Origin: Gaiellales bacterium
GTDB lineage: Bacteria > Actinomycetota > Thermoleophilia > RBG-16-64-13
Assembly (NCBI GenBank): GCA_012719395.1
Contig: JAAYAL010000081.1
Location: 1 to 63,010 of the forward strand
DNA length: 63,010 bases
Direction: 5' to 3'
The position numbers and the translations under genes were made by a program. The notes under the pieces are model-generated. The model worked only from the letters and a program-made list of their open reading frames with translations, searched no databases and was not told the origin of the DNA. Below, in pieces: positions 7,262 through 63,010 of this stretch. How positions within the stretch are numbered: the stretch's first letter is position 1; the number at the start of each line of letters is the position of its first letter.

Positions 7262-10200
7262 GGTGGGGCAGGGCTGTGCGATAGGCCTGGATATTGGGTC
7301 CACAACGGTCAAGATGGTGGTGTTGGATGAGGGGCTGCGTCCCATGCACCACTGCTACCGTCGCCACCACTCCGACACCCGCTCCGCTGTGCAGAATCTC
7401 CTGTGCCAAGCGGTCACCATTGTGGAAGACAGACCGGTTCGGTTGCGGATAACCGGGTCGGGTGGACTGGGCCTGGGCAAACGGTTGGGTCTTGAGTTCG
7501 TGCAGGAGGTTGTGGCAGTTCGCACTGCCGTCCGTTGCCTCGCGTCGGATGCGGACGTCGTGATCGAACTGGGTGGTGAAGACGCCAAGATTGTCTATCT
7601 TTCGGGCAGCGTGGAAGAGCGGATGAACGGGAGCTGCGCCGGCGGCACCGGCGCGTTCCTCGACCAGATGGCCTCCCTTCTGCGGACCGATGCTGCCGGA
7701 CTGGACGCGCTGGCGGCAGACGCCACCACCATCTACCCCATCGCAGCCCGCTGCGGGGTGTTCGCCAAGACCGACGTCCAACCGCTCCTCAATCAGGGAG
7801 CGCGGAGAGAGGACGTCGCGGCCTCGATTCTACAGTCGGTGGTGACCCAGACCATCAGCGGGCTGGCCTGTGGCCGCCCCATCCGCGGCAACGTGGTGTT
7901 TCTGGGCGGGCCGCTCAACTACCTACCCCAGCTCCGCAAGCGTTTCGTGGCGACATTGGGGCAGGATCTGACCTCGGCGGTGTGCCCGGCCAACGCTCAT
8001 TTGGTGGTGGCCACGGGCGCCGCGCTGTGTGCGCGCGAAGGCACGCCGGACTCGCTCGCCCGCGTTCTTGAGGAGCTCAGCGCCCTTGACGCCGGCATCA
8101 CCTCCAAGGGCATCCTTCAGCCCCTCTTCGCGTCGGCGGAGGAGTTTGCCGGTTTCTCTGACCGTCATGGGAGTTCGATCGTGCCCCGACGTGACCTTGA
8201 CACGTTCAGCGGGCCGGCCTATCTGGGGATCGACGCCGGGTCTACCACGTTCAAATTGGCGCTGGTCGGCTCGGAGGGAGAACTGCTCTATTCGTGTTAC
8301 GGCGCCAACCGTGGAGACATCATCGCGTCGGCCACCCGCGCCTTGCGCGAACTGTACCGGCGGTTGCCTTCCACGGCCACGATCGCCTCGTCCGTGGTCA
8401 CCGGCTACGGCGAAGGCCTCCTGCACACTGCCCTCCGCGTGGACCGCGGTGAGATCGAGACCATCGCCCACGCCCGCGCGGCCCGCGAGCTCGCGCTCGA
8501 TGTCGACTTTATCCTCGATATCGGGGGTCAGGATATGAAGTGCCTGCACATCACGGACGGAGTCATCGATCGCATCATGCTGAACGAAGCCTGCTCCTCC
8601 GGCTGCGGGTCATTCATCGAGACCTTCGCCGATTCGCTGGGGCTCTCTCTCAGCCGTTTCGTGTTCCACGCGCTGTTCGCGGAGAACCCTGTGGATCTAG
8701 GCTCGCGCTGCACGGTCTTCATGAACTCGCGCGTGCGGCAGGCGCAGAAGGAGGGCGCGAGCGTAGCCGACATCGCGGCCGGGTTGTGCTATGCGGTGGT
8801 GAAGAACGCTCTGTACAAGGTCATCCGCATCCGCGACCTTTCGGAACTGGGGGCACGCGTGGTGGTGCAGGGCGGCACCTTTGCCAACGACGCCATCCTC
8901 CGTGCTTTCGAGCGCCTCACGGGGCGTGAGGTGCTTCGCCCGGACATCGCAGGTCTGATGGGGGCTTGGGGGGCGGCTCTCCTTGCTCGGGACCACGCCG
9001 GGCCTGATGCCACCTCTTCCCTGCTCTCTGTTGACGAGATCGATCGCCTGACGTTGGAGCAACATACCTCCCGCTGCCGCGGGTGTTCCAATGCCTGCCT
9101 TCTGACCATCAGCCGCTTCGACGGCAACCGCTCATACACCTCCGGGAATCGCTGTGAGAGGGGCGGGGCAGGCGGCACGGAGGGGAAGGCGGCGGCCACC
9201 GCTTCGGCCGCCGCCGCGCTCAACGCGCCCAATCTCCCCCGCTACAAGTACCACCGGATCTTTGACTATGAGCCGCTCCCCCTGAAAGAGGCCCCTCGTG
9301 GGACGGTTGGCATTCCGAGAGCTCTCAACATGCACGAGAACTACCCATTCTGGTTCACGTTTTTCTCGCGCCTGGGCTTCCGCGTCATCCTCTCGTCGCG
9401 CACCACGGGCCGCACCTACCAGACGGGCATAGACTCCATCCCCTCGGAGTCCGTCTGCTACCCGGCCAAGCTCGCTCACGGCCACGTGGAAGACCTCATA
9501 GCACGAGGCGTGAAGCGCATCTTCATGCCGTGTGTACGTTGGGAGAGAAGCGAGGACGCCGAAGCATCAAACCACTTCAACTGCCCAATTGTCATGAGCT
9601 ACCCTGAGGTGCTCAAGCTCAACATCGAACGCCTCGCCAATGAAGGAATCGATTTCCGCAACCCCTTCCTCCCCTACCACGACAAACGAGCGCTGGTGCA
9701 CCGACTGCACGAAGTGGTGGCGGATTGGGGGCCCACGCGGGCGGAGATCAAAAAGGCCGTGGAGGCGGCCTGGGCGGAGGATCGTAGGTTCAAGCAGGAC
9801 ATCCGGGACCAGGGGAGGGCGGCGCTTGAGTGGATGGAGCGCACCGGCGGCCGCGGCATCGTATTGGCCGGGCGACCCTATCATCTGGACCCGGAGATTG
9901 GCCACGGCATCCCCCAGATGATCGAGCGCCTGGGGCTGGCCGTGCTCACCGAGGACAGTGTGGCCTGGATGGCCAAGCCGCCCCGTCCGCTCCGTGTCCA
10001 CGATCAATGGATGTATCACACGCGCCTGTACGCGGCGGCAACTGCGGTGACCGCCCGGGAAGACCTGGAACTGGTGCAACTCAACTCCTTCGGGTGTGGT
10101 CTCGATGCTCTGACCGTGGATCAGGTGGGAGAGATCCTGGCTGCGGCCGGCCGCATCCACACCGTCCTGAAGATCGATGAGATCAGCAACATGGGCGCCG

Positions 10201-11714
10201 CGCGCATCCGCCTCCGGTCCTTGTTGGCCGCCGTGGAGGAAAGGACGGCTCGCGAGAAGCGTGAGGCAACCGTTGGGCGCAGCACGCCGCCAAGCGCCCG
10301 CAACGGCACTGCCCCGTCTTCATTGGTGCGTGCTCCTCGCTACACAAAACCCATGAAAGAGGCCGGGTGGACGGTTCTTTCCCCGCAGCTGGCGCCTCTG
10401 CACCTTGATCTCCTGACCGAGGCCTTTCGTCGCAGCGGCTACAATCTGCAGCTGCTGCCGGTGGCGGGGCCAAGCGCAGTGGAGGAAGGGCTACGGCACG
10501 TCAACAACGACGCCTGCTACCCGGCAGTCATTGCCATAGGCCAAGTCATGGAGGCTCTCGCCTCCGGCGGGCACGACCCTGACCGCACGGCTGTCATCCT
10601 CACCCAGACAGGAGGGGTATGCCGGGCGACCAACTACGTGGCCCTGTTGCGCAAAGCCCTCGCGGATTCCGGACTCGGCCACGTGCCCGTGATATCTCTC
10701 ACCGCCGCAAACACGGGTGAGACGTCTCCGGGCTTCTCCGTCACCTCACCCCTGTTGCTGAGAGGCCTTGCCGCCGTGGTGTACGCGGATACCCTTTCCC
10801 GGTGTCTCTACCGAACCAGACCGTACGAGGCCACTCCCGGATCGGCCGCCGCTCTGGTGGCCGACTGGAGTGAACGGGCCAAGCAGGCGCTGCGCGGCCG
10901 CTTGGATGTGAGCCGCTATGTCGAGGGATTGCGTTCCATGGTGGCGGACTTCGATACCTTGCCCCTCGTCGGCGGGCGACGACCGCGTGTGGGAATCGTG
11001 GGAGAGATCCTGGTGAAATACCACCCGGACGCCAACAACCACCTTGTTGAGCTCCTGGAGTCCGAGGGCTGTGAGGCCACGGTGGGAGACCTCATGAGCT
11101 TCCTGCTGTACAGCTCCAGCGGTGGGGCGGTGCGCCGGCACGAATTGCGCACTCCCTACCGCCACGCGCTGCTTGCGCGGGCGGGGATGGGAGGACTCAA
11201 CCTCCTGCGCCGCGCTGCCGTCACCGCCCTCGCCGCGAGCCGGCGCTTCGAACCGCCCAGCGACCTTGCCGCGGTCCGGGCGCTCGCCGCTGACGTGCTT
11301 TCCACCTGCAACGCCATGGGTGAGGGGTGGCTTCTCACGGGCGAGATCCGTGAATTCATCGCGCGTGGTGTCCCCAACATCGTGTGTGCACAGCCTTTTG
11401 GATGTCTGCCGAACCACGTGGTGGGGAAGGGCGTCCTCAAGGAGATCCGACGACTCCACCCGGAGGCGAACATCGTGGCCGTTGACTACGATGCCGGCGC
11501 CTCGGAGACGAACCAGCTCAATCGCCTGAAGCTCATGATCGCCACGGCCAGAGAGCGCCATCACGCACAACCCGGCGAAGTCGTCCCCACCCGCGCGCGT
11601 CCCACAGCGCTCTGTGCTCCGGGAGGCCTCCACGACGTCGGGGCGGCGGAGGCTTTCCCAGCCCGGCCTTCGCGCGAGTCCGCGACCACGCGCGCGGCCG
11701 ATGTCTTTGCGTGA
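7251..11714 (+). CDS. CoA-substrate-specific enzyme activase (fused double BadF/BadG/BcrA/BcrD-type ATPase + DUF2229/HgdB-like region), 1487 aa
   Basis: Two ASKHA ATPase starts (GLDIGSTTVKMVVL and YLGIDAGSTTFKLALV), HgdC-like activase motifs, and the C-terminal ...PFGCLPNHVVGKGVLKEIRRLHPEANIVAVDYDAG... typical of the DUF2229 activase partner region. GTG start overlaps the TetR stop by 11 nt; a start at 7263 is also possible. Confidence 0.75.
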   Translation: MVPEVGQGCAIGLDIGSTTVKMVVLDEGLRPMHHCYRRHHSDTRSAVQNLLCQAVTIVEDRPVRLRITGSGGLGLGKRLGLEFVQEVVAVRTAVRCLASDADVVIELGGEDAKIVYLSGSVEERMNGSCAGGTGAFLDQMASLLRTDAAGLDALAADATTIYPIAARCGVFAKTDVQPLLNQGARREDVAASILQSVVTQTISGLACGRPIRGNVVFLGGPLNYLPQLRKRFVATLGQDLTSAVCPANAHLVVATGAALCAREGTPDSLARVLEELSALDAGITSKGILQPLFASAEEFAGFSDRHGSSIVPRRDLDTFSGPAYLGIDAGSTTFKLALVGSEGELLYSCYGANRGDIIASATRALRELYRRLPSTATIASSVVTGYGEGLLHTALRVDRGEIETIAHARAARELALDVDFILDIGGQDMKCLHITDGVIDRIMLNEACSSGCGSFIETFADSLGLSLSRFVFHALFAENPVDLGSRCTVFMNSRVRQAQKEGASVADIAAGLCYAVVKNALYKVIRIRDLSELGARVVVQGGTFANDAILRAFERLTGREVLRPDIAGLMGAWGAALLARDHAGPDATSSLLSVDEIDRLTLEQHTSRCRGCSNACLLTISRFDGNRSYTSGNRCERGGAGGTEGKAAATASAAAALNAPNLPRYKYHRIFDYEPLPLKEAPRGTVGIPRALNMHENYPFWFTFFSRLGFRVILSSRTTGRTYQTGIDSIPSESVCYPAKLAHGHVEDLIARGVKRIFMPCVRWERSEDAEASNHFNCPIVMSYPEVLKLNIERLANEGIDFRNPFLPYHDKRALVHRLHEVVADWGPTRAEIKKAVEAAWAEDRRFKQDIRDQGRAALEWMERTGGRGIVLAGRPYHLDPEIGHGIPQMIERLGLAVLTEDSVAWMAKPPRPLRVHDQWMYHTRLYAAATAVTAREDLELVQLNSFGCGLDALTVDQVGEILAAAGRIHTVLKIDEISNMGAARIRLRSLLAAVEERTAREKREATVGRSTPPSARNGTAPSSLVRAPRYTKPMKEAGWTVLSPQLAPLHLDLLTEAFRRSGYNLQLLPVAGPSAVEEGLRHVNNDACYPAVIAIGQVMEALASGGHDPDRTAVILTQTGGVCRATNYVALLRKALADSGLGHVPVISLTAANTGETSPGFSVTSPLLLRGLAAVVYADTLSRCLYRTRPYEATPGSAAALVADWSERAKQALRGRLDVSRYVEGLRSMVADFDTLPLVGGRRPRVGIVGEILVKYHPDANNHLVELLESEGCEATVGDLMSFLLYSSSGGAVRRHELRTPYRHALLARAGMGGLNLLRRAAVTALAASRRFEPPSDLAAVRALAADVLSTCNAMGEGWLLTGEIREFIARGVPNIVCAQPFGCLPNHVVGKGVLKEIRRLHPEANIVAVDYDAGASETNQLNRLKLMIATARERHHAQPGEVVPTRARPTALCAPGGLHDVGAAEAFPARPSRESATTRAADVFA

Positions 11715-16722: not shown

Positions 16723-19700
16723 TTGCAGATAGAATTGAACCACGTCATGGGTCCCCAGCAGAAGACAGTCGCCGGCCGAATCATGCCGCACCTCTCCGTA
16801 CGCGAGCGTCAGTGCAGTGACGGGAGTTGGGCGGTGAGTGCTCGCGGTCTTCTCGCCATGATCGTGGCGGGCTGCATCCTGATGGTGGCGACCGGATGCG
16901 GCGGAACGCCGCTTTCCGCGGATGTGGATGGCCATATGGTGACGCTCCCTCGTGTCATGAGAGCGGGAGAGACCACCCGGGTAGGTTTCACGCTTTTCGC
17001 CGGAGAGGAATTGGGGCAGGGCCAGGTTCAGGTTTCGCTGCGTGCTGCCGGTCAGTCGCTGGCCAAGGCGGAGGGCGGCATTGCCGGCACGGGCACGTTG
17101 GCCTTGGATGTACCGCAGGTCCCGGCGGGCGAGTACCAGGTGGAAGTGGCAGGCCCGGGCTTCAAGGAAGCTGCCTTCGTGGAGATAGAGCCGAGGATGC
17201 TCGTGCTCATTGAAACGGACAAGCCCGTCTACCGGCCCGGACAGACGGTTCTCATGCGCGTGGTAACGCTGGATTCCTCGCTCAAGGCGGCTCCGGTGGA
17301 AGTCGAAGTGGAGGCCTTGGACGCTCTGGGCAACCGCGTGTTCAGGAAGACCGTAGTGTCGGATGAGTTCGGCATGACCTCCCTGGAGATCCCTCTCTCC
17401 AGCGAGCCCAGCCTGGGGGTGTGGCAGCTCACGGCCTCCGCCGGAGAGAGCAGCACGCGGTTGGATGTGCAGGTGGAGGAATACGTGTGCCCCAAGTACG
17501 AGGTGAAGGTGGTGCCCTCTCGGGACTGGTTCCTCTCCAACGAGCCCCTCGAGGGTACGGTCTCAGCCACCTACGCCTACGGCCGGCCGGTGGAGGGACG
17601 ACTGGAGATCAGAGCCTGGCGCTACGTGGGTGCGTGGGAGGAATACGCGTCATACTCGGGGCCGGTTGACGGAGAGGGCTCATTCCGGGTTGATCCTGTG
17701 CGCGACGTGGCGGAAGCTCCGCGCACGGATGGTCTGGGCAACGTGCGCTTGGAAGTGAAGGTGGTCGAGGAGGCCACCGGTGACGAGCAGACCGTCACCG
17801 AGTTTCTCACCGCAGCCGCCGACCCTGTCCAGATGAGTATCGTCACCGAGAACATGGCCTTCAAGCCAGGCCTGCCCTTCAGCATCCTTTTGGTCACCAA
17901 GACGCCCGCAGGGGAGGCGGTCGAGTCGGCCGTTGTGGTGGAGACGGTCTACTACGCTGAGGACGAGAGCAGGGTGGGCATGGAACGGCAGCAGGTTGAG
18001 ACCGGAGGCGGCTCAGCCTTGGTGCGGTTGGCGCCGCCCGTCCGGGCGGCACGTATGGAGGTCACAGCATCAACGGGCTCGGTGGTGGCCGGCAAGGCGC
18101 TGACCGCGGCCTACTCTCCTTTGGGGAGCTTTGTGCACGTGGAGCAGTTCGGCTCGCCGTCGCTGCATATCGGCGACGCCGCTGTCTTCAGTGTCTATAG
18201 CACCAGCGAGGCCCACACTCTTCACTATGAGGTTGTGTCGCGTGATCGCATCGTGCTCACGGACAGCTCGTCCGGCGACATCCAGTTCCGCATCACCCCG
18301 GCCATGGCAGGGGCGTGTCGGCTGCTCGTCTACCATGTGCTGCCTTCGGGTGAGGTCGTGGCAGACGGCCTTCCCTTCACGGTCGAGGGTGAGTACCCGC
18401 AGAATGTCACCATTGATCTGGGCGCCGAGGAGGCACAGCCCGGCGCGGCTGTGCAGCTCCGGCTGCGCACGCAAGGCGAGGCCAGAGTTGGGCTGACCGG
18501 CGTGGATCACTCCGTGTTCGTCCTGTCGGAAAGTCGCCTGAACCTGCAGCAGGTCTTTGCCGAGCTGGGACGCCTCTCTCCGCAGCCTCAGGTGGAACAG
18601 CAGGAGGTGGATGGCGTCGGTCCCTTGCTGGTCCCCGGCGCCATGGACGCTTTCGCGGGAGCAGGACTGCTGGTGCTTTCGGACAAGGACATCCCTGGGG
18701 GCAAGACCGTCGAGCAACACGGGATCGTCTCCGCAGATGGGGAAGAGGGACCGGTGGCGGGAGGGGACGGCACACCCGCCGATAGCGAGGGGGGAAGGCA
18801 GGCCGGAGGTCTGGCACACGTTCCGCAGGCCCAGCAGTCCTTCCCTGAGACTTGGTTGTGGGAAGAGGTCACCACGGGAAAGGACGGCAAGGCGTCACTG
18901 TCTCTCGAAGTCCCTGATTCCATCACCACTTGGGATGTTCGCGCAGTGGCCGTGTCTGCCGAGAAGGGCCTGGGCATAGCCGAAACCTCGCTCCGTGCCT
19001 TCCAGCCCTTCTCCCTGACCGTGGATCTCTCTCCGTCTGCAATTCGCGGGGAACAGCTCCCTGTCAGGGTTGCTGTCTACAACTACACGGATGCTCCCCA
19101 GGAATTCACGGTGGAGATTGACGCGTCTCCCTGGTTCGATCTGTTGAGTGGTTACCGGCAGACGGTGTTGGTGGCGGCCAATGATGCGGGCGCCGCCGAG
19201 TTTGTGCTTCGGCCGGCGGTGCCGGGCACGCAGGTGGTGAAGGTGACGGCGCGCAGCGGTCGGATGACGCGTGCGGTGAATAAGAGCATTGCCGTGGAAG
19301 CTGGGGGGGTAGAGCAAGAACTCGTGGCAAACGCGGTGGTGGAAGCCGGCTCCTCGATGGCGCTGGATCTGAGCACTCCGGCCACCGGGGTGGTGCCGGA
19401 TTCGGGCACGGCTCACCTGACCCTGGCCGGCGGCTTACTGGCACCGTCCCTCGCGGGGCTGGATCAGCTGCTGCGGATGCCCTTGGGGTGCGGCGAGCAG
19501 AGCATGGTTCACTTCGCCTCCGCCACCTACATCCTTCGCTACATGAAGCAGGCGGGTGTGGTTGAGCCGGAGGTCCAGGCGAAGGCGGAGCGTCTGCTCC
19601 TCACCGGGTATCAGCGCGGACTGACCTTTCGGCGTGCGGATGGGAGCTTTTCGCCTTTCGGGGAAAGCGATGAGGAGGGCAGCCTCTTCCTGACGGCCTT

Positions 19701-20931
19701 CGTGCTCAAGACGTTCGCCCAGGCCGAGGGGCTGATCTACATAGACGAAGACATCATGGCCGCAGCAGGTGAGTGGATTGCTGAGCGGCAGCGGACCGAC
19801 GGGTCGTTCGAGTCCGTGGGGTTCGTCCATGATCAGGAGATGATGGGAGGAGGGGGCAACGAGGCGCTGACGGCGTACGTGGCCGTGGCGCTGCTCGAGG
19901 CGGGGATCACGGAAGCAGCGCAGAAGGCCATTGACTACCTGGGCGGCAGAGTTGATCAGGTCTCTGATCCCTACACGCTGGCTCTGGTCACCTTTGCCCT
20001 GGGCAGAGGGCGGAGCGAGGGGGCTGCCGATGCTAGGCAGCGGCTGCTTTCCCTTGCCACAGAGGGGGAAGACGGATTGCGCTGGGGCGCGGCATCGGCC
20101 GAGCCGGGTGGGCAGCCCGCGCAGGAGCACGTGGACGTGGCGGGTTCACCGTTGCTGGGCTCCGAGGTAGAGACAACGGGGTATGCGGCTCTGGCCCTGA
20201 GTCAGGCGGGTGATCGCGCCAACGCGGCCAAAGCCGTGCGCCGGCTGATGGGCGGGCGCAACAGCGTCGGTGGGTTCGCTACCACGCAAGGAACGGTGGT
20301 GGCCGTGCAGGCCTTGTCGGAGTTCGCAGCCGCTCAGGGGGAGGGCGCCGATCTCACGGTGCGCGTCTCCGGCGGGGGCCTGTTCAGAGAAGTGAGATTC
20401 GCTCCGGACAGCCTGGACGCGGAAGTGATAGAAGTCCCGATGGGGACCAAGCTCACCGTATCCGTGGAGGGACAAGGTGAAGCTGTGGTCCAGGGCGTGG
20501 TGCGCTATTGCCTCACTGCGCCCCCAGAGCCCGTCGCCTTCGACCTCAGGGTATCCTACGACGCTTCCCAGGTTGACGTGGGTGACGCCGTGCGCGTCAC
20601 GGCAGACGTCATGTTCACTCCGCCGGAGCCCCTTCAGGGATTGAACGCCGGAATGGTGGCGCTGGGCGTCGCGGTGCCAACCGGCTTTGAGGTGGTGCAG
20701 GAATCGCTTGCCGCCTTGCGCGAGTCGCCATACGTCAGGCGGTGCAGCCAATCGGGCCGCAAGGTAGTGGTGTACGTCGAGGATATGACGCCGGGCCAAG
20801 GCTTATCTCTGTCATTCACGATGTGGGCGCTGTATCCGGTGCAGGCCAAGAGCGCTGCTTCGCAGGTCTACTCCTGCTACCGGCCGCAGTGGAGGGGCGA
20901 GACGCTGAGTGAGGAGGTGAGCGGGAAGTAG
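16723..20931 (+). CDS. alpha-2-macroglobulin family protein with intact thioester (CGEQ), probable lipoprotein
   Basis: MPLGCGEQSMVHFA thioester motif, about 1400 aa, with MG-domain-like repeats. N-terminal lipobox LLAMIVAGCILMVATGCGG. Start is uncertain; GTG at 16834 gives a cleaner signal peptide. Confidence 0.85.
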   Translation: MQIELNHVMGPQQKTVAGRIMPHLSVRERQCSDGSWAVSARGLLAMIVAGCILMVATGCGGTPLSADVDGHMVTLPRVMRAGETTRVGFTLFAGEELGQGQVQVSLRAAGQSLAKAEGGIAGTGTLALDVPQVPAGEYQVEVAGPGFKEAAFVEIEPRMLVLIETDKPVYRPGQTVLMRVVTLDSSLKAAPVEVEVEALDALGNRVFRKTVVSDEFGMTSLEIPLSSEPSLGVWQLTASAGESSTRLDVQVEEYVCPKYEVKVVPSRDWFLSNEPLEGTVSATYAYGRPVEGRLEIRAWRYVGAWEEYASYSGPVDGEGSFRVDPVRDVAEAPRTDGLGNVRLEVKVVEEATGDEQTVTEFLTAAADPVQMSIVTENMAFKPGLPFSILLVTKTPAGEAVESAVVVETVYYAEDESRVGMERQQVETGGGSALVRLAPPVRAARMEVTASTGSVVAGKALTAAYSPLGSFVHVEQFGSPSLHIGDAAVFSVYSTSEAHTLHYEVVSRDRIVLTDSSSGDIQFRITPAMAGACRLLVYHVLPSGEVVADGLPFTVEGEYPQNVTIDLGAEEAQPGAAVQLRLRTQGEARVGLTGVDHSVFVLSESRLNLQQVFAELGRLSPQPQVEQQEVDGVGPLLVPGAMDAFAGAGLLVLSDKDIPGGKTVEQHGIVSADGEEGPVAGGDGTPADSEGGRQAGGLAHVPQAQQSFPETWLWEEVTTGKDGKASLSLEVPDSITTWDVRAVAVSAEKGLGIAETSLRAFQPFSLTVDLSPSAIRGEQLPVRVAVYNYTDAPQEFTVEIDASPWFDLLSGYRQTVLVAANDAGAAEFVLRPAVPGTQVVKVTARSGRMTRAVNKSIAVEAGGVEQELVANAVVEAGSSMALDLSTPATGVVPDSGTAHLTLAGGLLAPSLAGLDQLLRMPLGCGEQSMVHFASATYILRYMKQAGVVEPEVQAKAERLLLTGYQRGLTFRRADGSFSPFGESDEEGSLFLTAFVLKTFAQAEGLIYIDEDIMAAAGEWIAERQRTDGSFESVGFVHDQEMMGGGGNEALTAYVAVALLEAGITEAAQKAIDYLGGRVDQVSDPYTLALVTFALGRGRSEGAADARQRLLSLATEGEDGLRWGAASAEPGGQPAQEHVDVAGSPLLGSEVETTGYAALALSQAGDRANAAKAVRRLMGGRNSVGGFATTQGTVVAVQALSEFAAAQGEGADLTVRVSGGGLFREVRFAPDSLDAEVIEVPMGTKLTVSVEGQGEAVVQGVVRYCLTAPPEPVAFDLRVSYDASQVDVGDAVRVTADVMFTPPEPLQGLNAGMVALGVAVPTGFEVVQESLAALRESPYVRRCSQSGRKVVVYVEDMTPGQGLSLSFTMWALYPVQAKSAASQVYSCYRPQWRGETLSEEVSGK

Positions 20932-38318: not shown

Positions 38319-39791
38319 TCAGAGATTCATCAGCGCCCAAAGGAGTGCCGCCACCTCACCGCGTGTTGCGGGCGCCCATGGATCCCAATCCAATCCCACG
38401 TTGTAGAGTCCGGCCAGAAGGCCGTTGTGCTCGGCGATCTTCAGGTTGGTGTCATGGAGGCCAAGCCCGGTGAGAGCTACGGAGGGAGCGAACCCAACAG
38501 GAGGCGTGTCCAAGGCGTTGGGCTTCAAGGACTGGGCCGCTCGAATCACCATGGTGATCAACTGTGCGCGGCTGATGCTATCCCAGGGAGCGTAGCGGCC
38601 GGGCGCCACGCCTTGGGCGATACCGGCGCCGGCGGCTGCAGCGATGAACTGATGCGGATAGTGGGTGGAGGGATCATCGGCGCCCAGGTCTGAGAAGGAG
38701 CAGCCCTGACCCTCGCTCACCTCTATGCCCATGGCGCCACATATCATCTTCGCAAACTGCGCCCGATTGACCTCTTGCTCTATGCGGAATTCCCAGCCGT
38801 CCGCCACTTGGTAGCCGTCAATGATACGAGCCTGCTTCATTCCGTCGACTGCGGGGAAATAAGGGTGGGTGCTCGGCACGTCGACGAAGCCGTTCTCCGC
38901 GGGAGGGACGCTGGTCATCTGGGCAGCGGTCTGGTTGATGACCGTCACAGAAATGGCCATGGTGTTGGTGTTGCCCGCCGCATCGAACGCGGTGGCCCTA
39001 AGAGTGTAGGCGCCGTCGGGGCACTTGGTAGTGTCCCAGACGAACTGGTAGGGAACATCGATATCCGAGGCGGTCAGTGTATCGTTGATGGTCAGCTCTG
39101 TACGAGTGACGCCCACATTGTCAGACGCGGTGAGATCGATCACCACGTTCTCCCCGCTCACGGTGGCTCCGGTGGAGGGGCTGGTGATGCTGACAACCGG
39201 ACGCTGCGTGTCGCGCGGCTGCTGCTCGGTCCGAGCGGAGGCATCGATGTAGCCTCCGAAATCAGTGGTCCAGTAGGTGCCGTAGGCCGATCCTGACACT
39301 GTCAACATCGAGATGCCGATCACTCTGAATTCGGAGTTGAGCATGTTGGCGTTGTGACCGGGAGAGTTTCTCCACCCTTCAAACACGGCCTGCGCCGTGG
39401 CAAAACCTGCAGCTATGTTCTCGCCCTTTGTCGTGGAGTAGTCATAGCCTGAGGCCGCCATACGGTCCCATGGCGCACTTCCCGGGGCAAAGAAGTCCGA
39501 CTGGACGGTGTAGTGTGAGAAGAAGCCGTAGGCGCCCATGTCCGAGTTGTGGCGTCCGCAGGCTTCGCTGATTGTGCTGCTCAGCATCAACTCGCCAAGC
39601 CCGTTTTGCCGGCGATAGTCATTGATCAAGCCGAGGAAGGCAAGCTCCTGGGTGTTGAAGGCGTGGGCCGTGGCCGGTAGGCAGAGCGAGCCGATGATGG
39701 TCATGACGAGGAGCACGGCCACCGCGCCGACAAGCCTGCGCCGTCCGCTGCAGTATCTTGATGCTTGGTGCTCAGCGCCCCTTGCGACCAT
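38319..39791 (-). CDS. secreted CAP (SCP/PR-1)-domain protein with Big-like domain and C-terminal SLH domains
   Basis: Signal peptide, CAP domain (...GHNANML..), Ig-like segment, and C-terminal S-layer-homology repeats (FVDVPSTHPYFPAVDGM..., ...ISRAQLITMVIRA...). Start ATG at 39791 or 39830. Confidence 0.7.
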   Translation of the reverse strand: MVARGAEHQASRYCSGRRRLVGAVAVLLVMTIIGSLCLPATAHAFNTQELAFLGLINDYRRQNGLGELMLSSTISEACGRHNSDMGAYGFFSHYTVQSDFFAPGSAPWDRMAASGYDYSTTKGENIAAGFATAQAVFEGWRNSPGHNANMLNSEFRVIGISMLTVSGSAYGTYWTTDFGGYIDASARTEQQPRDTQRPVVSITSPSTGATVSGENVVIDLTASDNVGVTRTELTINDTLTASDIDVPYQFVWDTTKCPDGAYTLRATAFDAAGNTNTMAISVTVINQTAAQMTSVPPAENGFVDVPSTHPYFPAVDGMKQARIIDGYQVADGWEFRIEQEVNRAQFAKMICGAMGIEVSEGQGCSFSDLGADDPSTHYPHQFIAAAAGAGIAQGVAPGRYAPWDSISRAQLITMVIRAAQSLKPNALDTPPVGFAPSVALTGLGLHDTNLKIAEHNGLLAGLYNVGLDWDPWAPATRGEVAALLWALMNL

Positions 39792-39950
39792 TTGTGCGAC
39801 GCTCCCGTGCTGGCCCTGACAGTGATCCAATTGTGTCTCGTTGTTCCACTATAACGAAATAGAAGATCGGAAGTTGCGGAAAAGCTGCACGCTAACAGAA
39901 GGACGCAGACATGCGGGACGGCGGCAGAGCATTGGCAGTGGGCGGGTGGG

Positions 39951-40976: not shown

Positions 40977-41924
40977 ATGAGACACGTTCTGATGCGAGGT
41001 AGTGGACGGAGAGTCATCGGCTGCTGCACGGCGGCTGCGCTTCTCTTTCTCCTGGCGTTTGTCGCCGGGTGCGGCAGCGTTCAGCCTGGGGAGGGGGAGT
41101 CGACTGATACCACTGTGATGGCCGCAACCTCGTCCACCGAGGTGCAGGCATCCTCCACCACGACGGTCGGAACGTCGACCACGGTGGACGGGGGTGACCA
41201 GAAGGAGCCCTTGGAGCTTTCGGTCTACTTGTGTGGACCTGACGAGAAGCTGTGGCCGGTGCATCGGGAAGTCCCGTACACCGCTGCCACGGGGAAGACG
41301 GCCATGGAAGCGCTGCTGGGCGGGCCCACCGCCGCCGAAGAGGAAGCCGGCCTCGGCAGCTGCATACCGGACGGGACTGCGTTCTTGGGTCTCGACATAG
41401 AGGATGGCATTGCCACGGTGGATCTGTCGCGCGAATACGCGTCTGGTGGAGGCAGCCTCTCCATGGGCCTACGACTGGCTCAGGTCATCTTCACGCTGAC
41501 CCAGTTTCCAGAGGTGACGGCCGTCCGTTTCCAGGTGGAGGGGGAGACGGTGGACACTTTCGGAGGAGAGGGAATCATCCTTGATGGGCCGGTAGGGCGC
41601 GTTGATTTCGAAGACAGTTCGCCGGCCATTCTGGTGGAGTCGCCGGCTCTGGGTGATACCATCACCAGCCCGGTACGCGTGCGGGGTTCAGCAAATGTGT
41701 ACGAGGCCACCTTCCAGCTCAACCTCGTGGATTGGGACGGCAAGATCATAGCGGAGGAGACGGTCACTGCTTCTTCGGGCACGGGCACGCGCGGCACCTT
41801 TGACGTCACGGTCCCGTTCTCCGTGGACATGGCCGGGCGGGGCGCTCTGATCGTCTTCGTCTACTCAGCCAAGGATGGGTCGCAGGTGAACGTGCGGGAG
41901 ATTCCGCTGACGATCCAGAAGTGA
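40977..41924 (+). CDS. GerMN-domain lipoprotein (sporulation/germination-like Gmad1/Gmad2 architecture)
   Basis: Lipobox LLAFVAGCGS, Ser/Thr-rich linker, GerMN-like region (LSVYLCGPDEKLWPVHREVP..ALLGGP..), and a C-terminal Ig-like domain. RBS GGGGAGGGGAG lies before the ATG. Confidence 0.65.
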   Translation: MRHVLMRGSGRRVIGCCTAAALLFLLAFVAGCGSVQPGEGESTDTTVMAATSSTEVQASSTTTVGTSTTVDGGDQKEPLELSVYLCGPDEKLWPVHREVPYTAATGKTAMEALLGGPTAAEEEAGLGSCIPDGTAFLGLDIEDGIATVDLSREYASGGGSLSMGLRLAQVIFTLTQFPEVTAVRFQVEGETVDTFGGEGIILDGPVGRVDFEDSSPAILVESPALGDTITSPVRVRGSANVYEATFQLNLVDWDGKIIAEETVTASSGTGTRGTFDVTVPFSVDMAGRGALIVFVYSAKDGSQVNVREIPLTIQK

Positions 41925-59853: not shown

Positions 59854-60825
59854 GTGGACGCTATCAGCACACGGGGGCTCAGCAAGTACTACGGAAAGAC
59901 CCGCGGCGTGGAGGACGTGTCACTCTCCGTACCGGGGGGTGCCGTCTACGGATTCCTTGGTCCCAACGGATCGGGCAAGACCACCACTATTCGCTGTCTG
60001 CTCGGCATGCTGAGGCCCACGGCGGGCGAGGCGACCGTCTTGGGGCATCAGGTGACGCTCGATGGCGCGGAGTTGCGGCGACGAGTAGGGTACGTGGCGG
60101 GTGAGGTCCATCTCTACGAACGGGAAACGGGGCGTTGGCATCTGGACTACGTTGCCGGGTTCCGCGGGGGGAGGGGTACTCTCACCGACGATCTTGTTGA
60201 ACGTTTCGACTTCGATCCTTCCAAGAGGGTGAAGGAGCTCTCCAAGGGCAACAAGCAGAAGCTGGCGCTCATCCTGGGCATGGCGCACGATCCGGAACTG
60301 CTGATCCTTGACGAACCCACCAGCGGCCTTGACCCACTCAATCAGGAAGCGGTGTACGGGGTGATCGACGAGCGCATCGCCGCCGGCCGCACGGTCTTCC
60401 TGTCCAGCCATGTCCTGTCCGAGGTGGAGCGGGTATGCGAGAGGGTGGGGATTGTCCGCTCCGGCCACCTGGTGGCCGAGGAGAACGTACGGGACCTCTT
60501 GGGCAAGCGGCTGCGCCAAGTGGAGGTGCGGTTCGCCGAGACTGTGGCGCCCTCCTTCCTGGCGGACCTGCCGGGGGTGGACAGCGTGACGGCACTGAGC
60601 GAGGTGGTGCTGGCGGCGCGGGTCAAGGGCGGTGCCATCGATATGGTGCTGAAGCGCCTGGCCGGGCGCGCGGTTACCGATATCACCATAGAGCAGGCAG
60701 GCTTGGAGGACGTCTTCCTGGAGTTCTATCGGGGCGATGAGCCTGCCAATCCACCCGCGCCCGTGGCCGGAGAAGGGAGCGAGGGACCCGGCAGTGTGAC
60801 TTCCCACCGGGGGGGTGCGCTGTGA
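59854..60825 (+). CDS. ABC transporter ATP-binding protein (ABC-2 type)
   Basis: GPNGSGKTTT, LSKGNKQKL and LLILDEPTSGLD. GTG start 8 nt after the dynamin stop. Confidence 0.85.
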   Translation: MDAISTRGLSKYYGKTRGVEDVSLSVPGGAVYGFLGPNGSGKTTTIRCLLGMLRPTAGEATVLGHQVTLDGAELRRRVGYVAGEVHLYERETGRWHLDYVAGFRGGRGTLTDDLVERFDFDPSKRVKELSKGNKQKLALILGMAHDPELLILDEPTSGLDPLNQEAVYGVIDERIAAGRTVFLSSHVLSEVERVCERVGIVRSGHLVAEENVRDLLGKRLRQVEVRFAETVAPSFLADLPGVDSVTALSEVVLAARVKGGAIDMVLKRLAGRAVTDITIEQAGLEDVFLEFYRGDEPANPPAPVAGEGSEGPGSVTSHRGGAL

Positions 60826-61619
60826 GTTGGACGTTGCTCCGCGGCACGCTGCACCAGCGACGCGCATCCATCTTCTGGTTCTGCATCGGCCTGGTTCTCT
60901 ACTCTTGGCTCATGACGTGGTTCTATCCCAAGATCGGCGGGGGCCGGTATGCGGAGATGATCCAGAGCCTGCCGCCGGAGGTGCTTGTCATCTTCGGGGG
61001 GACGGAGGTGCCGTTTGCGTCCTTGGGGGGGTACTTCCAGACCGAGTACCTCGGCCTCATGTGGATGATCATCGTGGCGGCGGCGGTCGTGTTGTTCGCC
61101 GGGCGGGCGTTCTCCGGTGAAGTTGGCGCCGGGACCATGGAGCTACTGCTGGCGCAGCCCATCTCACGTCTGCAGCTGGCCCTCACGCGGGTGGCGGCCT
61201 TCGTGGGCTACACCGTGGTGCTGTCCGCAGCTTCCTTCGTGCCCATCCAGGCTTTCGGCCCCGCCTACGGTATTGAGCTTGGCGCGAAGACCTTCTGGAC
61301 GCTGTTCGCTTTCGGCACACTCTTCATGCTGGCTGTGGGTGGTTTGGCCATGCTGCTGAGCGCGGTGTTTCGTGACAGCGGCAGGCCCAGTGGGATCGCA
61401 GCCGGCCTGCTTGTAGTGTTTTGGATCGCCGACTTGGTCTCGAGCGTCTCGAAGGCAGCCCGTTTCTTCGATCCCATCAACCTTGTCTCCTACTGGCAGC
61501 CGGGCAAGATCATCAATGGGGAGTCCATTTCGCCGCGGGCCTGGTGGATCTACGGGTTGGTGGGAGCCTTGTCGTTGGCGGCAGCGGTGGTGCTGTTCCG
61601 GCGTCGGGACGTGGCCTGA
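60822..61619 (+). CDS. ABC-2 family transporter permease
   Basis: GTG overlapping the upstream stop (GTGA). Six predicted TM helices. Confidence 0.7.
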   Translation: MSWTLLRGTLHQRRASIFWFCIGLVLYSWLMTWFYPKIGGGRYAEMIQSLPPEVLVIFGGTEVPFASLGGYFQTEYLGLMWMIIVAAAVVLFAGRAFSGEVGAGTMELLLAQPISRLQLALTRVAAFVGYTVVLSAASFVPIQAFGPAYGIELGAKTFWTLFAFGTLFMLAVGGLAMLLSAVFRDSGRPSGIAAGLLVVFWIADLVSSVSKAARFFDPINLVSYWQPGKIINGESISPRAWWIYGLVGALSLAAAVVLFRRRDVA

Positions 61620-61685
61620 TCGTGGTTGGATGGGCCGGCATTGGGACGGGAGTGGTGTCCCTGGGGCGCTGCGAGGAGTGGCATT

Positions 61686-61973
61686 ATGTCTGAGATCAAC
61701 ATGGCGCAGGCCCCGGATTTCGAGCCGGCTGATGCCGGTGGGATGCCTTTCGTGCTTTCCGCTCTCCGCGGGAGCAAGAACGTCCTCCTGGTACTCAATC
61801 GCGGGTTCGGCTGACCATACAGCCGCGCGCACCTGGCGCAGTTGCGCCACGACTCCCCGAGATATGAAGAGGCTCAGACCACGATTGTGGTGATCGGCCC
61901 GGTCCCCAGTGGCCGGGCCGCGCCTTCCGGATCGCCGGCGCCCGCCTCTTGGCCTACTTCCTCACCGGTGTAG
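61686..61973 (+). CDS. redoxin/AhpC-TSA-like ORF with in-frame TGA at the CxxC position (candidate selenoprotein; apparently 3'-truncated, possibly a pseudogene)
   Basis: MSEINMAQAPDFEPADAGGMPFVLSALRGSKNVLLVLNRGFG-[TGA 61812-61814]-PYSRAHLAQLRHDSPRYEEAQTTIVVIGPV... aligns with the Prx-like pattern ..VLVF.RG.WCPYCR..L..L...Y.EF...GAEVV.IS.D, with the TGA where the first Cys sits. GAGGAG RBS 9 nt before the ATG. Hairpin TGGCGCA-GT-TGCGCCA at 61834-61849 lies 20 nt after the TGA. The ORF ends after only about 95 codons, overlapping the SPFH gene. Confidence 0.4.
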
Positions 61974-62847
61974 TTGTGGTGACGGGTTTGGGCGCCACCG
62001 GCACCACGCCCGCCAGTTCGCCGATGACGTTGATCAGCTGCGTGTCACCCGGAACCACCACTTTGGCGTTCTGGGCGAGGGCACGTTCCACGGCCTCCAG
62101 CTTGCGCAGAATCTGCGCGTTGCCGACGAAGAACTTGTCGGCTGCCTCGTTGACCAGTTGAATGGCCTGGGCCTGGCCCTCAGCCTCCAGTATGCGCGCC
62201 TGCTTGGTGCCCTCTGCCTTCTTGATCTCGGCACGCCGCTGGCCGTCGGCCTGCGTCTCGACAGCCGTGGCGAAGTCTATAGCCGCCACCTTCTCGTTCT
62301 CGGCCTTGACCACTTTGTTCATGGTCTCCTGCACGTCCTCGGGCGGATCGATCTCCTTGAGTTCCGTACGCAAGATCTCGATGCCCCAGCTGGCGGTCTC
62401 GATGAGGAGGGTGCTGCGCAGTTCCTCGTTGATCTTGCCTCGTTCGCTGTTGGCCGATTTGAGCGTGAGCGTTCCGATGATGTTGCGGAGGGTGGTGCGG
62501 GCCAGGTTGACGATCTGGAACTGGTAGTTGGCCACGTTGTACTGCGAGGCCTTGACGCTCTCCTCATCCGCTTTGACCTTGAGGTAAACCTGGGCGTCCA
62601 CGCGGGCATTGAGGTTGTCGTTGGTGATGATCATCTGCGGTTGCGCTTCCACCATCATTTCGCGTATGTCCACCTGGAACATTCGCTCGATCACGGGGAT
62701 GATGAGGTGGAAACCCGGCAAGGCGTAACGGTTGTACTTCCCCAGACGTTCCACCAGCCCCCGGTGCGTGGGCCGGACGATCCTGATACCCGACGCGATG
62801 ATGGCCAGCACGAGGACCACAGCGACGAGAACGGCAATCGTAGTCAC
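61954..62847 (-). CDS. SPFH/band-7 (stomatin/prohibitin-like) membrane protein
   Basis: N-terminal TM (TTIAVLVAVVLVLAIIASGIRIV), then an SPFH core (...LERLGKYNRYALPGFHLIIPVIERMFQVDIREM...) and a coiled-coil tail. GTG start at 62847 with a GGCGGAG RBS; the longer ORF to 62964 is possible. Confidence 0.75.
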   Translation of the reverse strand: MTTIAVLVAVVLVLAIIASGIRIVRPTHRGLVERLGKYNRYALPGFHLIIPVIERMFQVDIREMMVEAQPQMIITNDNLNARVDAQVYLKVKADEESVKASQYNVANYQFQIVNLARTTLRNIIGTLTLKSANSERGKINEELRSTLLIETASWGIEILRTELKEIDPPEDVQETMNKVVKAENEKVAAIDFATAVETQADGQRRAEIKKAEGTKQARILEAEGQAQAIQLVNEAADKFFVGNAQILRKLEAVERALAQNAKVVVPGDTQLINVIGELAGVVPVAPKPVTTTTPVRK

Positions 62848-62884
62848 AGACTCCGCCTTTCTGCCGGCAAACCGGCTTCGCACC

Positions 62885-63010
62885 CTAGTGTCCTGCGTTG
62901 TTAATCCGTTGGCAATAGGAGGCCAGCCCCTCCAGGATCTGATCAGCGGTCTTGTGCCAGACATAGGGCCGGGGGTTGTCGTTCCAGTGGGCGATCCAGG
63001 TACGGATGGA
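62885..63010 (-). mobile_element. IS630-family transposase, C-terminal fragment (remainder outside window)
   Basis: Minus-strand translation ...SIRTWIAHWNDNPRPYVWHKTADQILEGLASYCQRINNAGH* matches the conserved C-terminal N.NPKPF.WTKTAD.IL tail of IS630/Tc1-mariner-type bacterial transposases. The window ends inside the gene. Confidence 0.45.

What the first reader, a model, noticed from the sequence alone, without database searches (positions are those of the whole stretch)
61686..61973. In-frame UGA at the redox-active Cys position of a Prx-like redoxin: candidate selenoprotein, but 3'-truncated
The ORF downstream of the ABC-2 permease reads through a TGA that sits where the first Cys of the (W)CPYC redoxin motif would be (..NRGFG-U-PYS-RAHLAQL..). 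The Prx-like pattern continues in frame for about 30 residues beyond it (LAQLR...Y.EA...IVVIG), which argues against a simple stop codon. A short GC hairpin with G/U in the apical region begins about 20 nt downstream, within the distance range of a bacterial SECIS element. The second Cys is replaced by Ser (UxxS). The reading frame ends after about 95 codons, with the last 20 or so residues being low-complexity and overlapping the convergent SPFH gene. The thioredoxin-fold C-terminal half is therefore missing: this is either a decaying Sec-gene remnant (an IS630 copy lies 900 bp away) or a very unusual mini-redoxin.
Basis: partly seen in the sequence, partly recalled or inferred. Interest (0 to 1): 0.75.

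Follow-up and report, generated by a model that had tools for sequence, protein, structure and literature searches.

The report
Truncated selenoprotein gene remnant
This is the front half of a peroxiredoxin-like selenoprotein gene that still has its selenocysteine codon and recoding hairpin but lost its back half in a deletion of about 670 bp, so it is a dying gene and not a new kind of protein.

Summary
ORF 61686-61973 (+) has an in-frame TGA (61812-61814) at the first position of a redox motif, and homology continues for 29 codons after it.

All 86 fetched homologous loci, plus two sister-species loci, carry TGA at the same codon. They read on for 110-130 codons. They share a hairpin 20 nt downstream (UGGCGC-AGUU-GCGCCA) whose synonymous sites are frozen: Leu is TTG in 84/84 loci against 13% elsewhere in the same genes. 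The window copy matches this hairpin base for base. The TGA is therefore an inherited Sec codon with its bacterial SECIS.

Two sister species with the same gene order (ABC ATPase, ABC-2 permease, redoxin, DUF1801, convergent SPFH) have full-length genes of 156-158 residues with the same U-P-Y-S motif. UxxS is thus a lineage trait and not a sign of decay.

Relative to them the window lacks about 670 bp: the redoxin's last 84 codons and the whole DUF1801 gene. The last 23 codons of the window ORF are former spacer and antisense SPFH sequence. Eight independent assemblies span the junction and all show it; one has an extra frameshift.

Verdict: a recent pseudogene of the known Prx-like selenoprotein family. 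Whether this organism has Sec machinery could not be tested.

The parts
60822..61619 (+). ABC-2 family transporter permease gene, the upstream neighbour. It served as the anchor for finding orthologous loci.
   Evidence: Pfam ABC2_membrane_2. An identical protein is named 'MAG: ABC transporter permease subunit [Gaiellales bacterium]', with longest contig 63010.
61673..61678 (+). Shine-Dalgarno-like GAGGAG, 7 nt before the ATG of the remnant.
   Evidence: Read directly from the sequence. The same GAGGAG is present in the sister locus L095.
61686..61811 (+). Codons 1-42 of the Prx-like selenoprotein gene (MSEINMAQAPDF...VLNRGFG).
   Evidence: It is 74% identical in protein to L095 over residues 1-73.
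61803..61805 (+). GGG run that is GG in one strain (L001), shifting the frame 7 nt before the TGA.
61812..61814 (+). In-frame TGA, the inherited selenocysteine codon (U of U-P-Y-S).
   Evidence: TGA sits at the aligned codon in 86/86 homologous loci and in both sister species.
61815..61901 (+). Codons 44-72 (PYSRAHLAQLRHDSPRYEEAQTTIVVIGP), the last stretch homologous to the family.
61834..61849 (+). Bacterial SECIS hairpin UGGCGC-AGUU-GCGCCA: a 6-bp stem and a 4-nt apical loop containing G.
   Evidence: It is identical to the family consensus. Pairing is 94-99% per pair in 84 loci and the loop is AGUU in 81/84. Synonymous sites are frozen. RNAalifold predicts exactly this stem.
61902..61903 (.). 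Deletion junction (within a few nt). About 670 bp present in sister species are missing here.
   Evidence: Homology to L095 runs 5886-6082 = window 61706-61902, then breaks. It resumes with L095 ~6750-6800 = window ~61903-61953.
61903..61973 (+). Non-homologous tail of the ORF (VPSGRAAPSGSPAPASWPTSSPV, stop TAG at 61971-61973). It is former spacer upstream of the SPFH stop plus 20 nt antisense to SPFH.
   Evidence: No family member has matching residues.
61954..62883 (-). Convergent SPFH/Band 7 gene, the downstream neighbour, which is intact.
   Evidence: Pfam Band_7. It is called as 309 aa in L001 and L088-L089. It is 92% identical to L095 and about 88% identical to L010 and L014.
62885..63010 (-). 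3' end of an IS630-type transposase gene, which runs off the window.
   Evidence: L089 continues it as a 378-aa product with HTH_23/28/29/32 and DDE_3. It is absent at this place in sister locus L095.

Best explanation
The ORF is a recently truncated, non-functional remnant of a Prx-like (AhpC/TSA-fold) selenoprotein gene.

In the ancestor the gene encoded a protein of about 156 residues. A UGA, 42-43 codons in, was recoded to selenocysteine by a small hairpin 20 nt downstream. This would work by the standard bacterial mechanism, in which SelB-GTP-Sec-tRNA(Sec) binds the SECIS within the coding region. That mechanism is inferred from the family and was not tested here. In this lineage the motif is U-P-Y-S and the protein has no cysteine, so the selenol would be the only redox centre.

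A deletion of about 670 bp then joined codon 72 (...IVVIGP) to the spacer just upstream of the convergent SPFH gene's stop. It removed the last 84 codons of the redoxin and the whole overlapping DUF1801 gene.

What remains is the ribosome-binding site, the start codon, 42 codons, the UGA, the intact SECIS and 29 more homologous codons. These run on into 23 codons of meaningless sequence. If the cell still decodes Sec, the remnant would yield a 95-residue product. That product would lack the part that aligns to residues 74-133 of the closest solved structure, M. tuberculosis AhpE, including the conserved GRMPAQ-LVD segment. If the cell does not decode Sec, the product would be a 42-residue peptide. 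Neither is expected to fold or act as a redoxin.
For: Shown:
1. TGA sits at the aligned codon in 86/86 homologous loci, each reading on for 110-130 codons.
2. The hairpin is conserved in 84 loci. Leu is TTG in 84/84 (13% of Leu codons elsewhere in the same genes) and Ala is GCG in 80/82 (23% elsewhere). Loop AGUU is found in 81/84, and there is a doubly compensated version in low-GC L007. RNAalifold predicts the same 6 pairs, and the window copy equals the consensus.
3. Two sister species (ABC-2 permease 86-87% identical) carry full-length genes with U-P-Y-S followed by DUF1801. L095 shows the whole gene order PFK, dynamin-like GTPase, ABC ATPase, ABC-2, redoxin, DUF1801, convergent SPFH. The short L101 contig shows the ABC-2, redoxin and DUF1801 part.
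4. DNA homology to L095 is 83% up to nt 61902, then breaks and resumes at the SPFH stop. About 670 bp are missing.
5. Neither the missing C-terminal half nor DUF1801 is anywhere else in the 63 kb.
6. The window peptide covers only positions 4-65 of the 124-position AhpC-TSA profile, whereas the sister protein covers 1-123.
7. The same junction appears in the eight assemblies from different samples and assemblers that span it (L001, L088-L091, L093, L103, L104). L001 carries a further 1-nt deletion that shifts the frame before the TGA.

Inferred: loss of fold and function, from the missing half of a thioredoxin-fold domain.
Against: - The remnant shows little decay. The reading frame, ribosome-binding site, UGA and SECIS are all intact.
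- Substitutions on the window branch are only weakly in excess: 20 against 10 and 9 in 64 codons, compared with 57 against 63 and 41 in the ABC-2 gene (my chi-square p is about 0.07). This fits a recent deletion but does not by itself exclude continued constraint.
- The frameshifted variant comes from one contig at 3.3x coverage and could be an assembly error.
- Whether the organism has Sec machinery, or a second intact copy elsewhere, is unknown.
- The deletion endpoints are placed by comparison with a sister species that is 83% identical, not with the true ancestor, so they are good only to within a few nt.
Confidence: 0.87

Rival explanations
1. The truncated ORF is still functional. It might act as a 95-residue mini-selenoprotein, or as an RNA element whose intact UGA-SECIS binds SelB, for example to titrate or sense Sec-decoding capacity.
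For: The ribosome-binding site, start, UGA and SECIS are all intact, and the frame stays open for 95 codons. The truncated allele is the only one seen in the eight assemblies that span the junction. There is no strong excess of substitutions on the window branch.
Against: The tail is former spacer and antisense sequence with no homolog. Half of the thioredoxin-fold domain is gone. One strain has a frameshift 7 nt before the UGA. The contigs are at least 99.4% identical, so fixation of the allele and the lack of decay are what a recent neutral or hitch-hiking deletion would give. No such function is known for SECIS remnants.
Confidence: 0.05
2. The truncation is an assembly or binning artefact, and the real genome has a full-length gene.
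For: The window is a MAG contig. Metagenome assemblies can collapse or mis-join sequences, and one related contig (L103) does have an unexplained junction at 61720.
Against: The identical junction at 61902/61903 is present in eight contigs from different samples and different assemblers (SPAdes NODE_, MEGAHIT k141_ and JGI names), at 99.4-100% identity across it. No full-length allele of this near-identical sequence was found. The exact-pattern scan of JGI metagenomes returned only truncated copies.
Confidence: 0.02
3. The TGA is an ordinary stop. Either the gene is a 42-codon ORF, or a Cys codon (TGC/TGT) mutated to TGA in a Cys-type redoxin that was already dying.
For: TGC to TGA is a single base change. 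Gene callers annotate a 42-aa ORF here. Cys-type relatives (C-P-F-C) exist in the wider family.
Against: All 86 nearest homologous loci and both syntenic orthologs have TGA at this codon, with long in-frame continuations. The SECIS hairpin with frozen synonymous sites lies at the expected distance. The TGA therefore predates the truncation.
Confidence: 0.01

Closest known systems
Prx-like thiol:disulfide oxidoreductase selenoprotein family. It has the AhpC/TSA fold (PF00578) and a UxxC or UxxU motif. It was described from Geobacter and other Deltaproteobacteria, the Sargasso Sea and GOS data (PMC1088965, PMC2398784, PMC1794560, PMC13188914).
   Same: The AhpC/TSA-type domain is shared. Sec is at the first position of a thioredoxin-like UxxC-type motif, not at the Prx TxxU position (alignment to AhpE; PMC1088965). 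A small SECIS hairpin with G in the apical loop lies just downstream of the UGA. Cys-type homologs coexist with the Sec forms.
   Different: The window copy has only 72 of about 156 homologous residues. Its lineage has Ser in place of the second Cys (UxxS), and the intact sister proteins contain no Cys at all. The 2026 review lists only UxxC and UxxU for this family. I could not fetch the reference protein (WP_010940744.1). Assignment to this named family therefore rests on motif, fold and description, not on a direct alignment.
NCBIfam NF040769, SelL-related redox protein
   Same: It is the best-scoring NCBIfam model for the window peptide and for full-length relatives. The N-terminal half, including the redox motif, aligns to it.
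   Different: Scores are far below the curated cutoff of 120 bits: 35 bits for the window peptide and 73-85 bits for full-length relatives. Only model positions 2-99 of 173 match. This is not a member.
Mycobacterium tuberculosis AhpE (Rv2238c), a 1-Cys peroxiredoxin; the closest solved structure (5c04, 1xxu and others)
   Same: The fold and length are the same, with E 2.4e-7 over residues 3-133 of the sister-species protein. Like AhpE, the UxxS clade would have a single redox-active residue.
   Different: In the alignment the AhpE peroxidatic Cys falls on the Ser of U-P-Y-S, and the Sec falls on the conserved Thr position. The active residue is thus shifted by three positions. Sequence identity is low.
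Selenoprotein gene loss in bacterial lineages (Zhang et al. 2006, PMC1794560)
   Same: That work inferred frequent loss of selenoprotein genes between sister genomes, including in Actinobacteria. This locus is an example of such a loss caught while the remnant is still recognisable.
   Different: That study inferred losses from presence or absence between genomes. Here the deletion itself and the surviving UGA-SECIS half are visible.

Membership tests
Prx-like (UxxC-type) selenoprotein family | In-frame UGA at the first position of the redox motif, aligned with Sec or Cys of homologs | tested here: met
   TGA at 61812-61814 aligns with TGA in 86/86 loci and with Cys in Cys-type homologs.
Prx-like (UxxC-type) selenoprotein family | Bacterial SECIS: a stem-loop shortly downstream of the UGA with a small apical loop containing G | tested here: met
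   The hairpin at 61834-61849 is identical to the family consensus. Synonymous sites are frozen, one compensated variant exists, and RNAalifold predicts the same stem. There is no Rfam match, as expected for a family-specific element.
Prx-like (UxxC-type) selenoprotein family | Second redox residue (Cys or Sec) three positions after the Sec | tested here: not met
   The window has Ser (AGC at 61821-61823). 83/84 homologs have Cys. The two intact sister orthologs also have Ser, so this is a clade variant.
Prx-like (UxxC-type) selenoprotein family | Complete AhpC/TSA (thioredoxin-fold) domain | tested here: not met
   The window peptide covers profile positions 4-65 of 124, at 25.2 bits against a cutoff of 26. 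The sister protein covers 1-123 at 60.4 bits. The missing half is not elsewhere in the window.
Prx-like (UxxC-type) selenoprotein family | Host genome encodes Sec machinery (selA, selB, selD, tRNA-Sec) | not testable with these tools
   The 63 kb holds no tRNA at all, no SelA, SelB or SelD domains in 40 predicted genes, and no other TGA-split gene.
NCBIfam NF040769 SelL-related redox protein | Score at or above the curated cutoff (120 bits) over the full model | tested here: not met
   The window peptide scores 35.4 bits. Full-length relatives score 84.8 and 73.5 bits, matching model positions 2-99 of 173 only.
Typical peroxiredoxin (PxxxTxxC / TxxU) | Peroxidatic Cys or Sec at the fourth position of TxxC, preceded by conserved Pro and Thr | tested here: not met
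   In the alignment to AhpE, the Sec aligns with the Thr position and Ser aligns with the peroxidatic Cys.
Pseudogene (truncated remnant) | Shorter than syntenic orthologs because of an identifiable lesion, with the lost part absent | tested here: met
   About 670 bp are missing relative to L095, and L101 likewise carries the full-length redoxin followed by DUF1801. Gene order on both sides is the same as in L095.
Pseudogene (truncated remnant) | Evidence of relaxed selection (further disabling mutations, raised substitution rate) | tested here: inconclusive
   There is one extra frameshift, in a single contig at 3.3x coverage. The window branch has 20 changes against 10 and 9, compared with 57, 63 and 41 in the neighbouring gene (p about 0.07). 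Pairwise dN/dS is 0.31-0.47, against 0.56 between the two intact sisters.

The most novel reading that the evidence does not exclude
The remnant is not dead. Because its ribosome-binding site, UGA and SECIS are intact and the allele is fixed in all sampled populations, it could still be translated with Sec insertion into a 95-residue selenopeptide. Alternatively its SECIS could act as a SelB-binding RNA element with a new role.
Probability: 0.05. Interest if true: 0.55.

Novelty: new member of a known kind. Interest (0 to 1): 0.25.

Why it matters
For the question asked, the result is mostly reassuring. An in-frame TGA at a redox-motif position, followed by continued homology and a hairpin, really did mark a selenoprotein gene. 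The odd short length is explained by an ordinary deletion. The locus is a clean, datable example of selenoprotein gene loss in progress in an uncultured Actinomycetota lineage (a MAG labelled Gaiellales), with the recoding signals still intact.

Two by-products are of modest use.

1. The family is widespread. At least 576 loci were confirmed in GTDB species genomes. The 80 best were fetched, mostly from Chloroflexota and Actinomycetota, and every one has TGA at this codon. Annotation pipelines split these genes into 43-45-aa and roughly 110-aa pieces, or translate the TGA as Trp. The very conserved hairpin would make a good annotation model.
2. A Cys-free U-P-Y-S subclade exists. Its selenol must work without an internal resolving thiol.

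Tried and rejected
1. The word-indexed protein search with the read-through peptide found only the same locus. The exhaustive phmmer search was needed.
2. Rfam found nothing at gathering thresholds, and in E-value mode only chance-level hits such as symR at 21.8 bits against a cutoff of 61. Folding the single sequence gave z = 0.39. Neither result speaks to SECIS status.
3. I first read the C-to-S, M-to-L and F-to-L changes as decay. The window deviates at 5 of 25 columns that are at least 90% conserved, and it sits on a long branch relative to L010 and L014. I rejected this reading. The intact sister orthologs share C-to-S, M-to-L and F-to-L, so these are clade traits. L010 and L014 share only the SPFH neighbour.
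4. IS630-mediated deletion: there is no support. The IS lies 912 nt away, beyond an intact SPFH gene, and no repeat or IS end is present at the junction. Only an 8-bp inverted repeat, CGGCCCGG/CCGGGCCG, flanks it, which is unremarkable at 65% GC.
5. The promoter and terminator scan of 61400-62200 found nothing above shuffles.
6. The search for a second selenoprotein gene or Sec machinery in the window found nothing.
7. Looking for the lost half elsewhere in the window found nothing.
8. I considered predicting a structure for the 95-residue product and did not run it. A model built from the family alignment would show the native-like N-terminal half whatever the real stability.

Full report
**What is in the sequence.** The ORF at 61686-61973 (+) lies 66 nt downstream of an ABC-2 permease gene and is preceded by GAGGAG at a 7-nt spacing. 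It translates to MSEINMAQAPDFEPADAGGMPFVLSALRGSKNVLLVLNRGFG*PYSRAHLAQLRHDSPRYEEAQTTIVVIGPVPSGRAAPSGSPAPASWPTSSPV*. The internal stop is TGA at 61812-61814. With Cys substituted there, the peptide matches Pfam AhpC-TSA over residues 8-70. This covers only profile positions 4-65 of 124, at 25.2 bits, just under the cutoff of 26. The best NCBIfam model is NF040769 (SelL-related redox protein) at 35 bits against a cutoff of 120. The window contains no tRNA and no Rfam family at gathering score. The fold of this stretch is no better than shuffled sequence, however (z = 0.39). The single sequence therefore cannot decide anything.

**The family.** A word-indexed search found only the same locus. An exhaustive phmmer search of 1.84 billion representatives, with X at the TGA, gave 22 hits of three kinds.
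- Proteins of about 150-165 residues with C-P-F-C at the aligned place.
- Proteins with Trp at that place.
- Calls of 43-45 residues that end exactly there.

The DNA behind the last two kinds shows an in-frame TGA followed by 110-122 more codons of the same domain. A pattern scan of GTDB species genomes confirmed at least 576 related loci. The best 80 come mainly from Chloroflexota (Anaerolineae) and Actinomycetota (Thermoleophilia, Gaiellales) MAGs. In all 86 fetched loci the codon aligned with 61812-61814 is TGA, inside NRGF-x-U-P-[FY]-C-[RQ]-x-H. Full-length members score 73-85 bits on NF040769, so they are not members of that NCBIfam family. They match PF00578 over its full length. By motif and fold they correspond to the 'Prx-like' selenoproteins of the literature. 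[quoted passage not shown] The 2026 review lists them as 'Prx-like thiol:disulfide oxidoreductase, PF00578, UxxC/UxxU' (PMC13188914). In the alignment to the closest solved structure, M. tuberculosis AhpE, the Sec falls on the Thr position and the second motif residue falls on the peroxidatic Cys.

**The hairpin is the family's SECIS.** Downstream of the TGA nearly all loci read ATG GCG CAG TTG CGC CAx, which forms UGGCGC-AGUU-GCGCCA.
- The Leu codon is TTG in 84 of 84 loci, although TTG is 13% of Leu codons elsewhere in these genes.
- The Ala codon is GCG in 80 of 82, against 23% elsewhere.
- Each of the six pairs is formed in 94-99% of loci, with 11 G-C to G-U changes.
- The low-GC locus L007 has the doubly compensated UGAUGC-AGUU-GCAUCA.
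- The loop is AGUU in 81 of 84 loci.
- RNAalifold on 27 diverse members predicts exactly these six pairs.

A small apical loop containing G, just downstream of the UGA, is the stated hallmark of bacterial SECIS elements (PMC1088965). The spacing here is 25 nt from the UGA to the loop. From my own knowledge this lies within the 16-37 nt range of the bSECISearch model. The window copy is identical to the consensus hairpin.

**What happened to the gene.** The identical ABC-2 permease is on record as 'MAG... [Gaiellales bacterium]' with a longest contig of 63,010 bp, which is this window. Two sister species have permeases 86% and 87% identical.
- L095-L097 (three samples) show the full gene order: PFK, two small genes, a dynamin-like GTPase, ABC ATPase, ABC-2 permease, redoxin, DUF1801, convergent SPFH.
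- L101 is a short contig that shows the ABC-2, redoxin and DUF1801 part.

Their redoxin genes are full length (156 and 158 residues) with TGA, the hairpin, and U-P-Y-S, H-L-A-Q-L-R and V-L-N-R-G-F, just as in the window. I had first taken these departures from the family consensus as decay. They are traits of an intact clade, whose proteins contain no cysteine at all.

DNA homology between the window and L095 is 83% from 61706 to 61902 and then stops. It resumes, at about 60-65%, between window 61903-61953 and the L095 spacer just upstream of the SPFH stop. About 670 bp of L095 (6083 to about 6752) have no counterpart. These are the redoxin's last 84 codons and the whole DUF1801 gene, which overlaps the redoxin's end. 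Neither is found anywhere else in the 63 kb. The 23-codon tail of the window ORF is therefore read-through into old spacer plus 20 nt antisense to SPFH.

**Is it real, and how old?** Ten metagenome contigs from different samples and assemblers carry this locus at 99.4-100% identity, and the eight that span the junction all show it. One of them (L001, 3.3x coverage) also lacks a G in GGG at 61803-61805, which shifts the frame 7 nt before the TGA. Substitution counts give only a weak signal. In 64 aligned codons the window branch has 20 changes (11 synonymous, 9 not) against 10 and 9 on the sister branches. In the ABC-2 gene the counts are 57, 63 and 41 (my chi-square p is about 0.07). Pairwise dN/dS for the remnant (0.31-0.47) is no higher than between the two intact sisters (0.56). 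The clade's redoxin evolves faster than its neighbours, which have dN/dS of 0.07-0.17. The simplest reading is that the deletion is recent compared with the split from the sister species. That also explains why the start signals, UGA and SECIS are still perfect.

**Mechanism and status.**
- Shown: an inherited Sec codon with its SECIS, a deletion that removes half of the domain, and fixation of that allele in the sampled populations.
- Inferred: the remnant cannot form a thioredoxin fold, because the part that aligns with AhpE residues 74-133 is missing, including the conserved GRMPAQ-LVD segment. It would produce either a 42-residue peptide or, if Sec decoding persists, a 95-residue product without function.
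- Not testable here: whether the organism still has selA, selB, selD and tRNA-Sec. None is in the window, and no other TGA-split gene is there either.

**Rivals.**
- Assembly artefact: contradicted by the eight independent assemblies that span the junction.
- Plain stop, or a Cys-to-stop mutation: contradicted by TGA in every relative and by the SECIS.
- A still-functional mini-selenopeptide or SECIS RNA element: cannot be excluded, but nothing speaks for it beyond the lack of decay.
- IS630 involvement: not supported, because an intact SPFH gene separates the IS from the junction.

**Verdict.** The thing itself is an ordinary, recently made pseudogene of a known selenoprotein family. It is a new member of a known kind and of low to moderate interest.

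Noticed in passing
L095 5863-6333, L101 1419-1895 (also L096, L097): Intact sister-species orthologs have U-P-Y-S and contain no cysteine. This is a one-selenol, Cys-free subclade of the Prx-like selenoprotein family, always followed by an overlapping DUF1801 gene. The 2026 review table lists only UxxC and UxxU for this family.
   Followed up: partly
L008-L087 (80 genome loci), L002-L007: The family is widespread in Chloroflexota and Actinomycetota MAGs, and every fetched locus has TGA. Gene callers split it into a 43-45-aa ORF plus an ORF of about 110 aa, or translate the TGA as Trp (P0002, P0004, P0012). The nearly invariant ATGGCGCAGTTGCGCCA hairpin would serve as an annotation marker.
   Followed up: partly
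L103 1-977, joined at window 61720: A contig at 1.8x coverage carries the same truncated allele. Upstream of window position 61720, however, it continues into a fragment of an AMP-dependent acyl-CoA synthetase gene that is not in the 63 kb. This is either a chimeric assembly or a further rearrangement in one strain.
   Followed up: partly
window 61803-61805 (L001 3290 region): GGG is GG in contig L001 (3.3x coverage), a frameshift just before the TGA. L001 is also the most divergent strain, with 6 mismatches in 4.4 kb.
   Followed up: partly
L006 343-708: A metagenome copy has U-P-Y-A and only 73 codons after the TGA, and it loses homology after ...GIPDPLH. It looks like a second, independent decayed member of the family.
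   Followed up: no
L009 10130-11275; L037 10130-10738: In these two loci the frame stays open for 381 and 202 codons after the TGA, instead of about 115. These could be domain fusions or lost stop codons.
   Followed up: no
window 62885-63010 (-), continued in L089 2329-3465: An IS630-type transposase gene ends 1 nt from the called SPFH start. It is absent at this place in the sister species. Contigs L001 and L091 both break inside it at window 62938, as expected for a repeated element.
   Followed up: partly
window 61895-61920: A perfect 8-bp inverted repeat, CGGCCCGG ... CCGGGCCG, brackets the deletion junction. It could be chance in 65% GC DNA.
   Followed up: no
window 38322-39830 (-), 40977-41921 (+), 16723-20928 (+), 7251-11711 (+): The contig of this Actinomycetota MAG also encodes several other proteins. 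They are an SLH-domain CAP/Big_7 surface protein, a Germane/Gmad2 (GerM-like) protein, a 1402-aa alpha-2-macroglobulin-like protein and a 1487-aa BcrAD/BadFG-DUF2229 CoA-enzyme activase.
   Followed up: no
L010 4167-6166; L014 10001-11836: Two other Actinomycetota MAGs have a UxxC-type redoxin convergent with an SPFH gene about 88% identical to the window's. They have a nitroreductase upstream instead of the ABC transporter. The redoxin-SPFH pairing is therefore older than the UxxS clade.
   Followed up: partly
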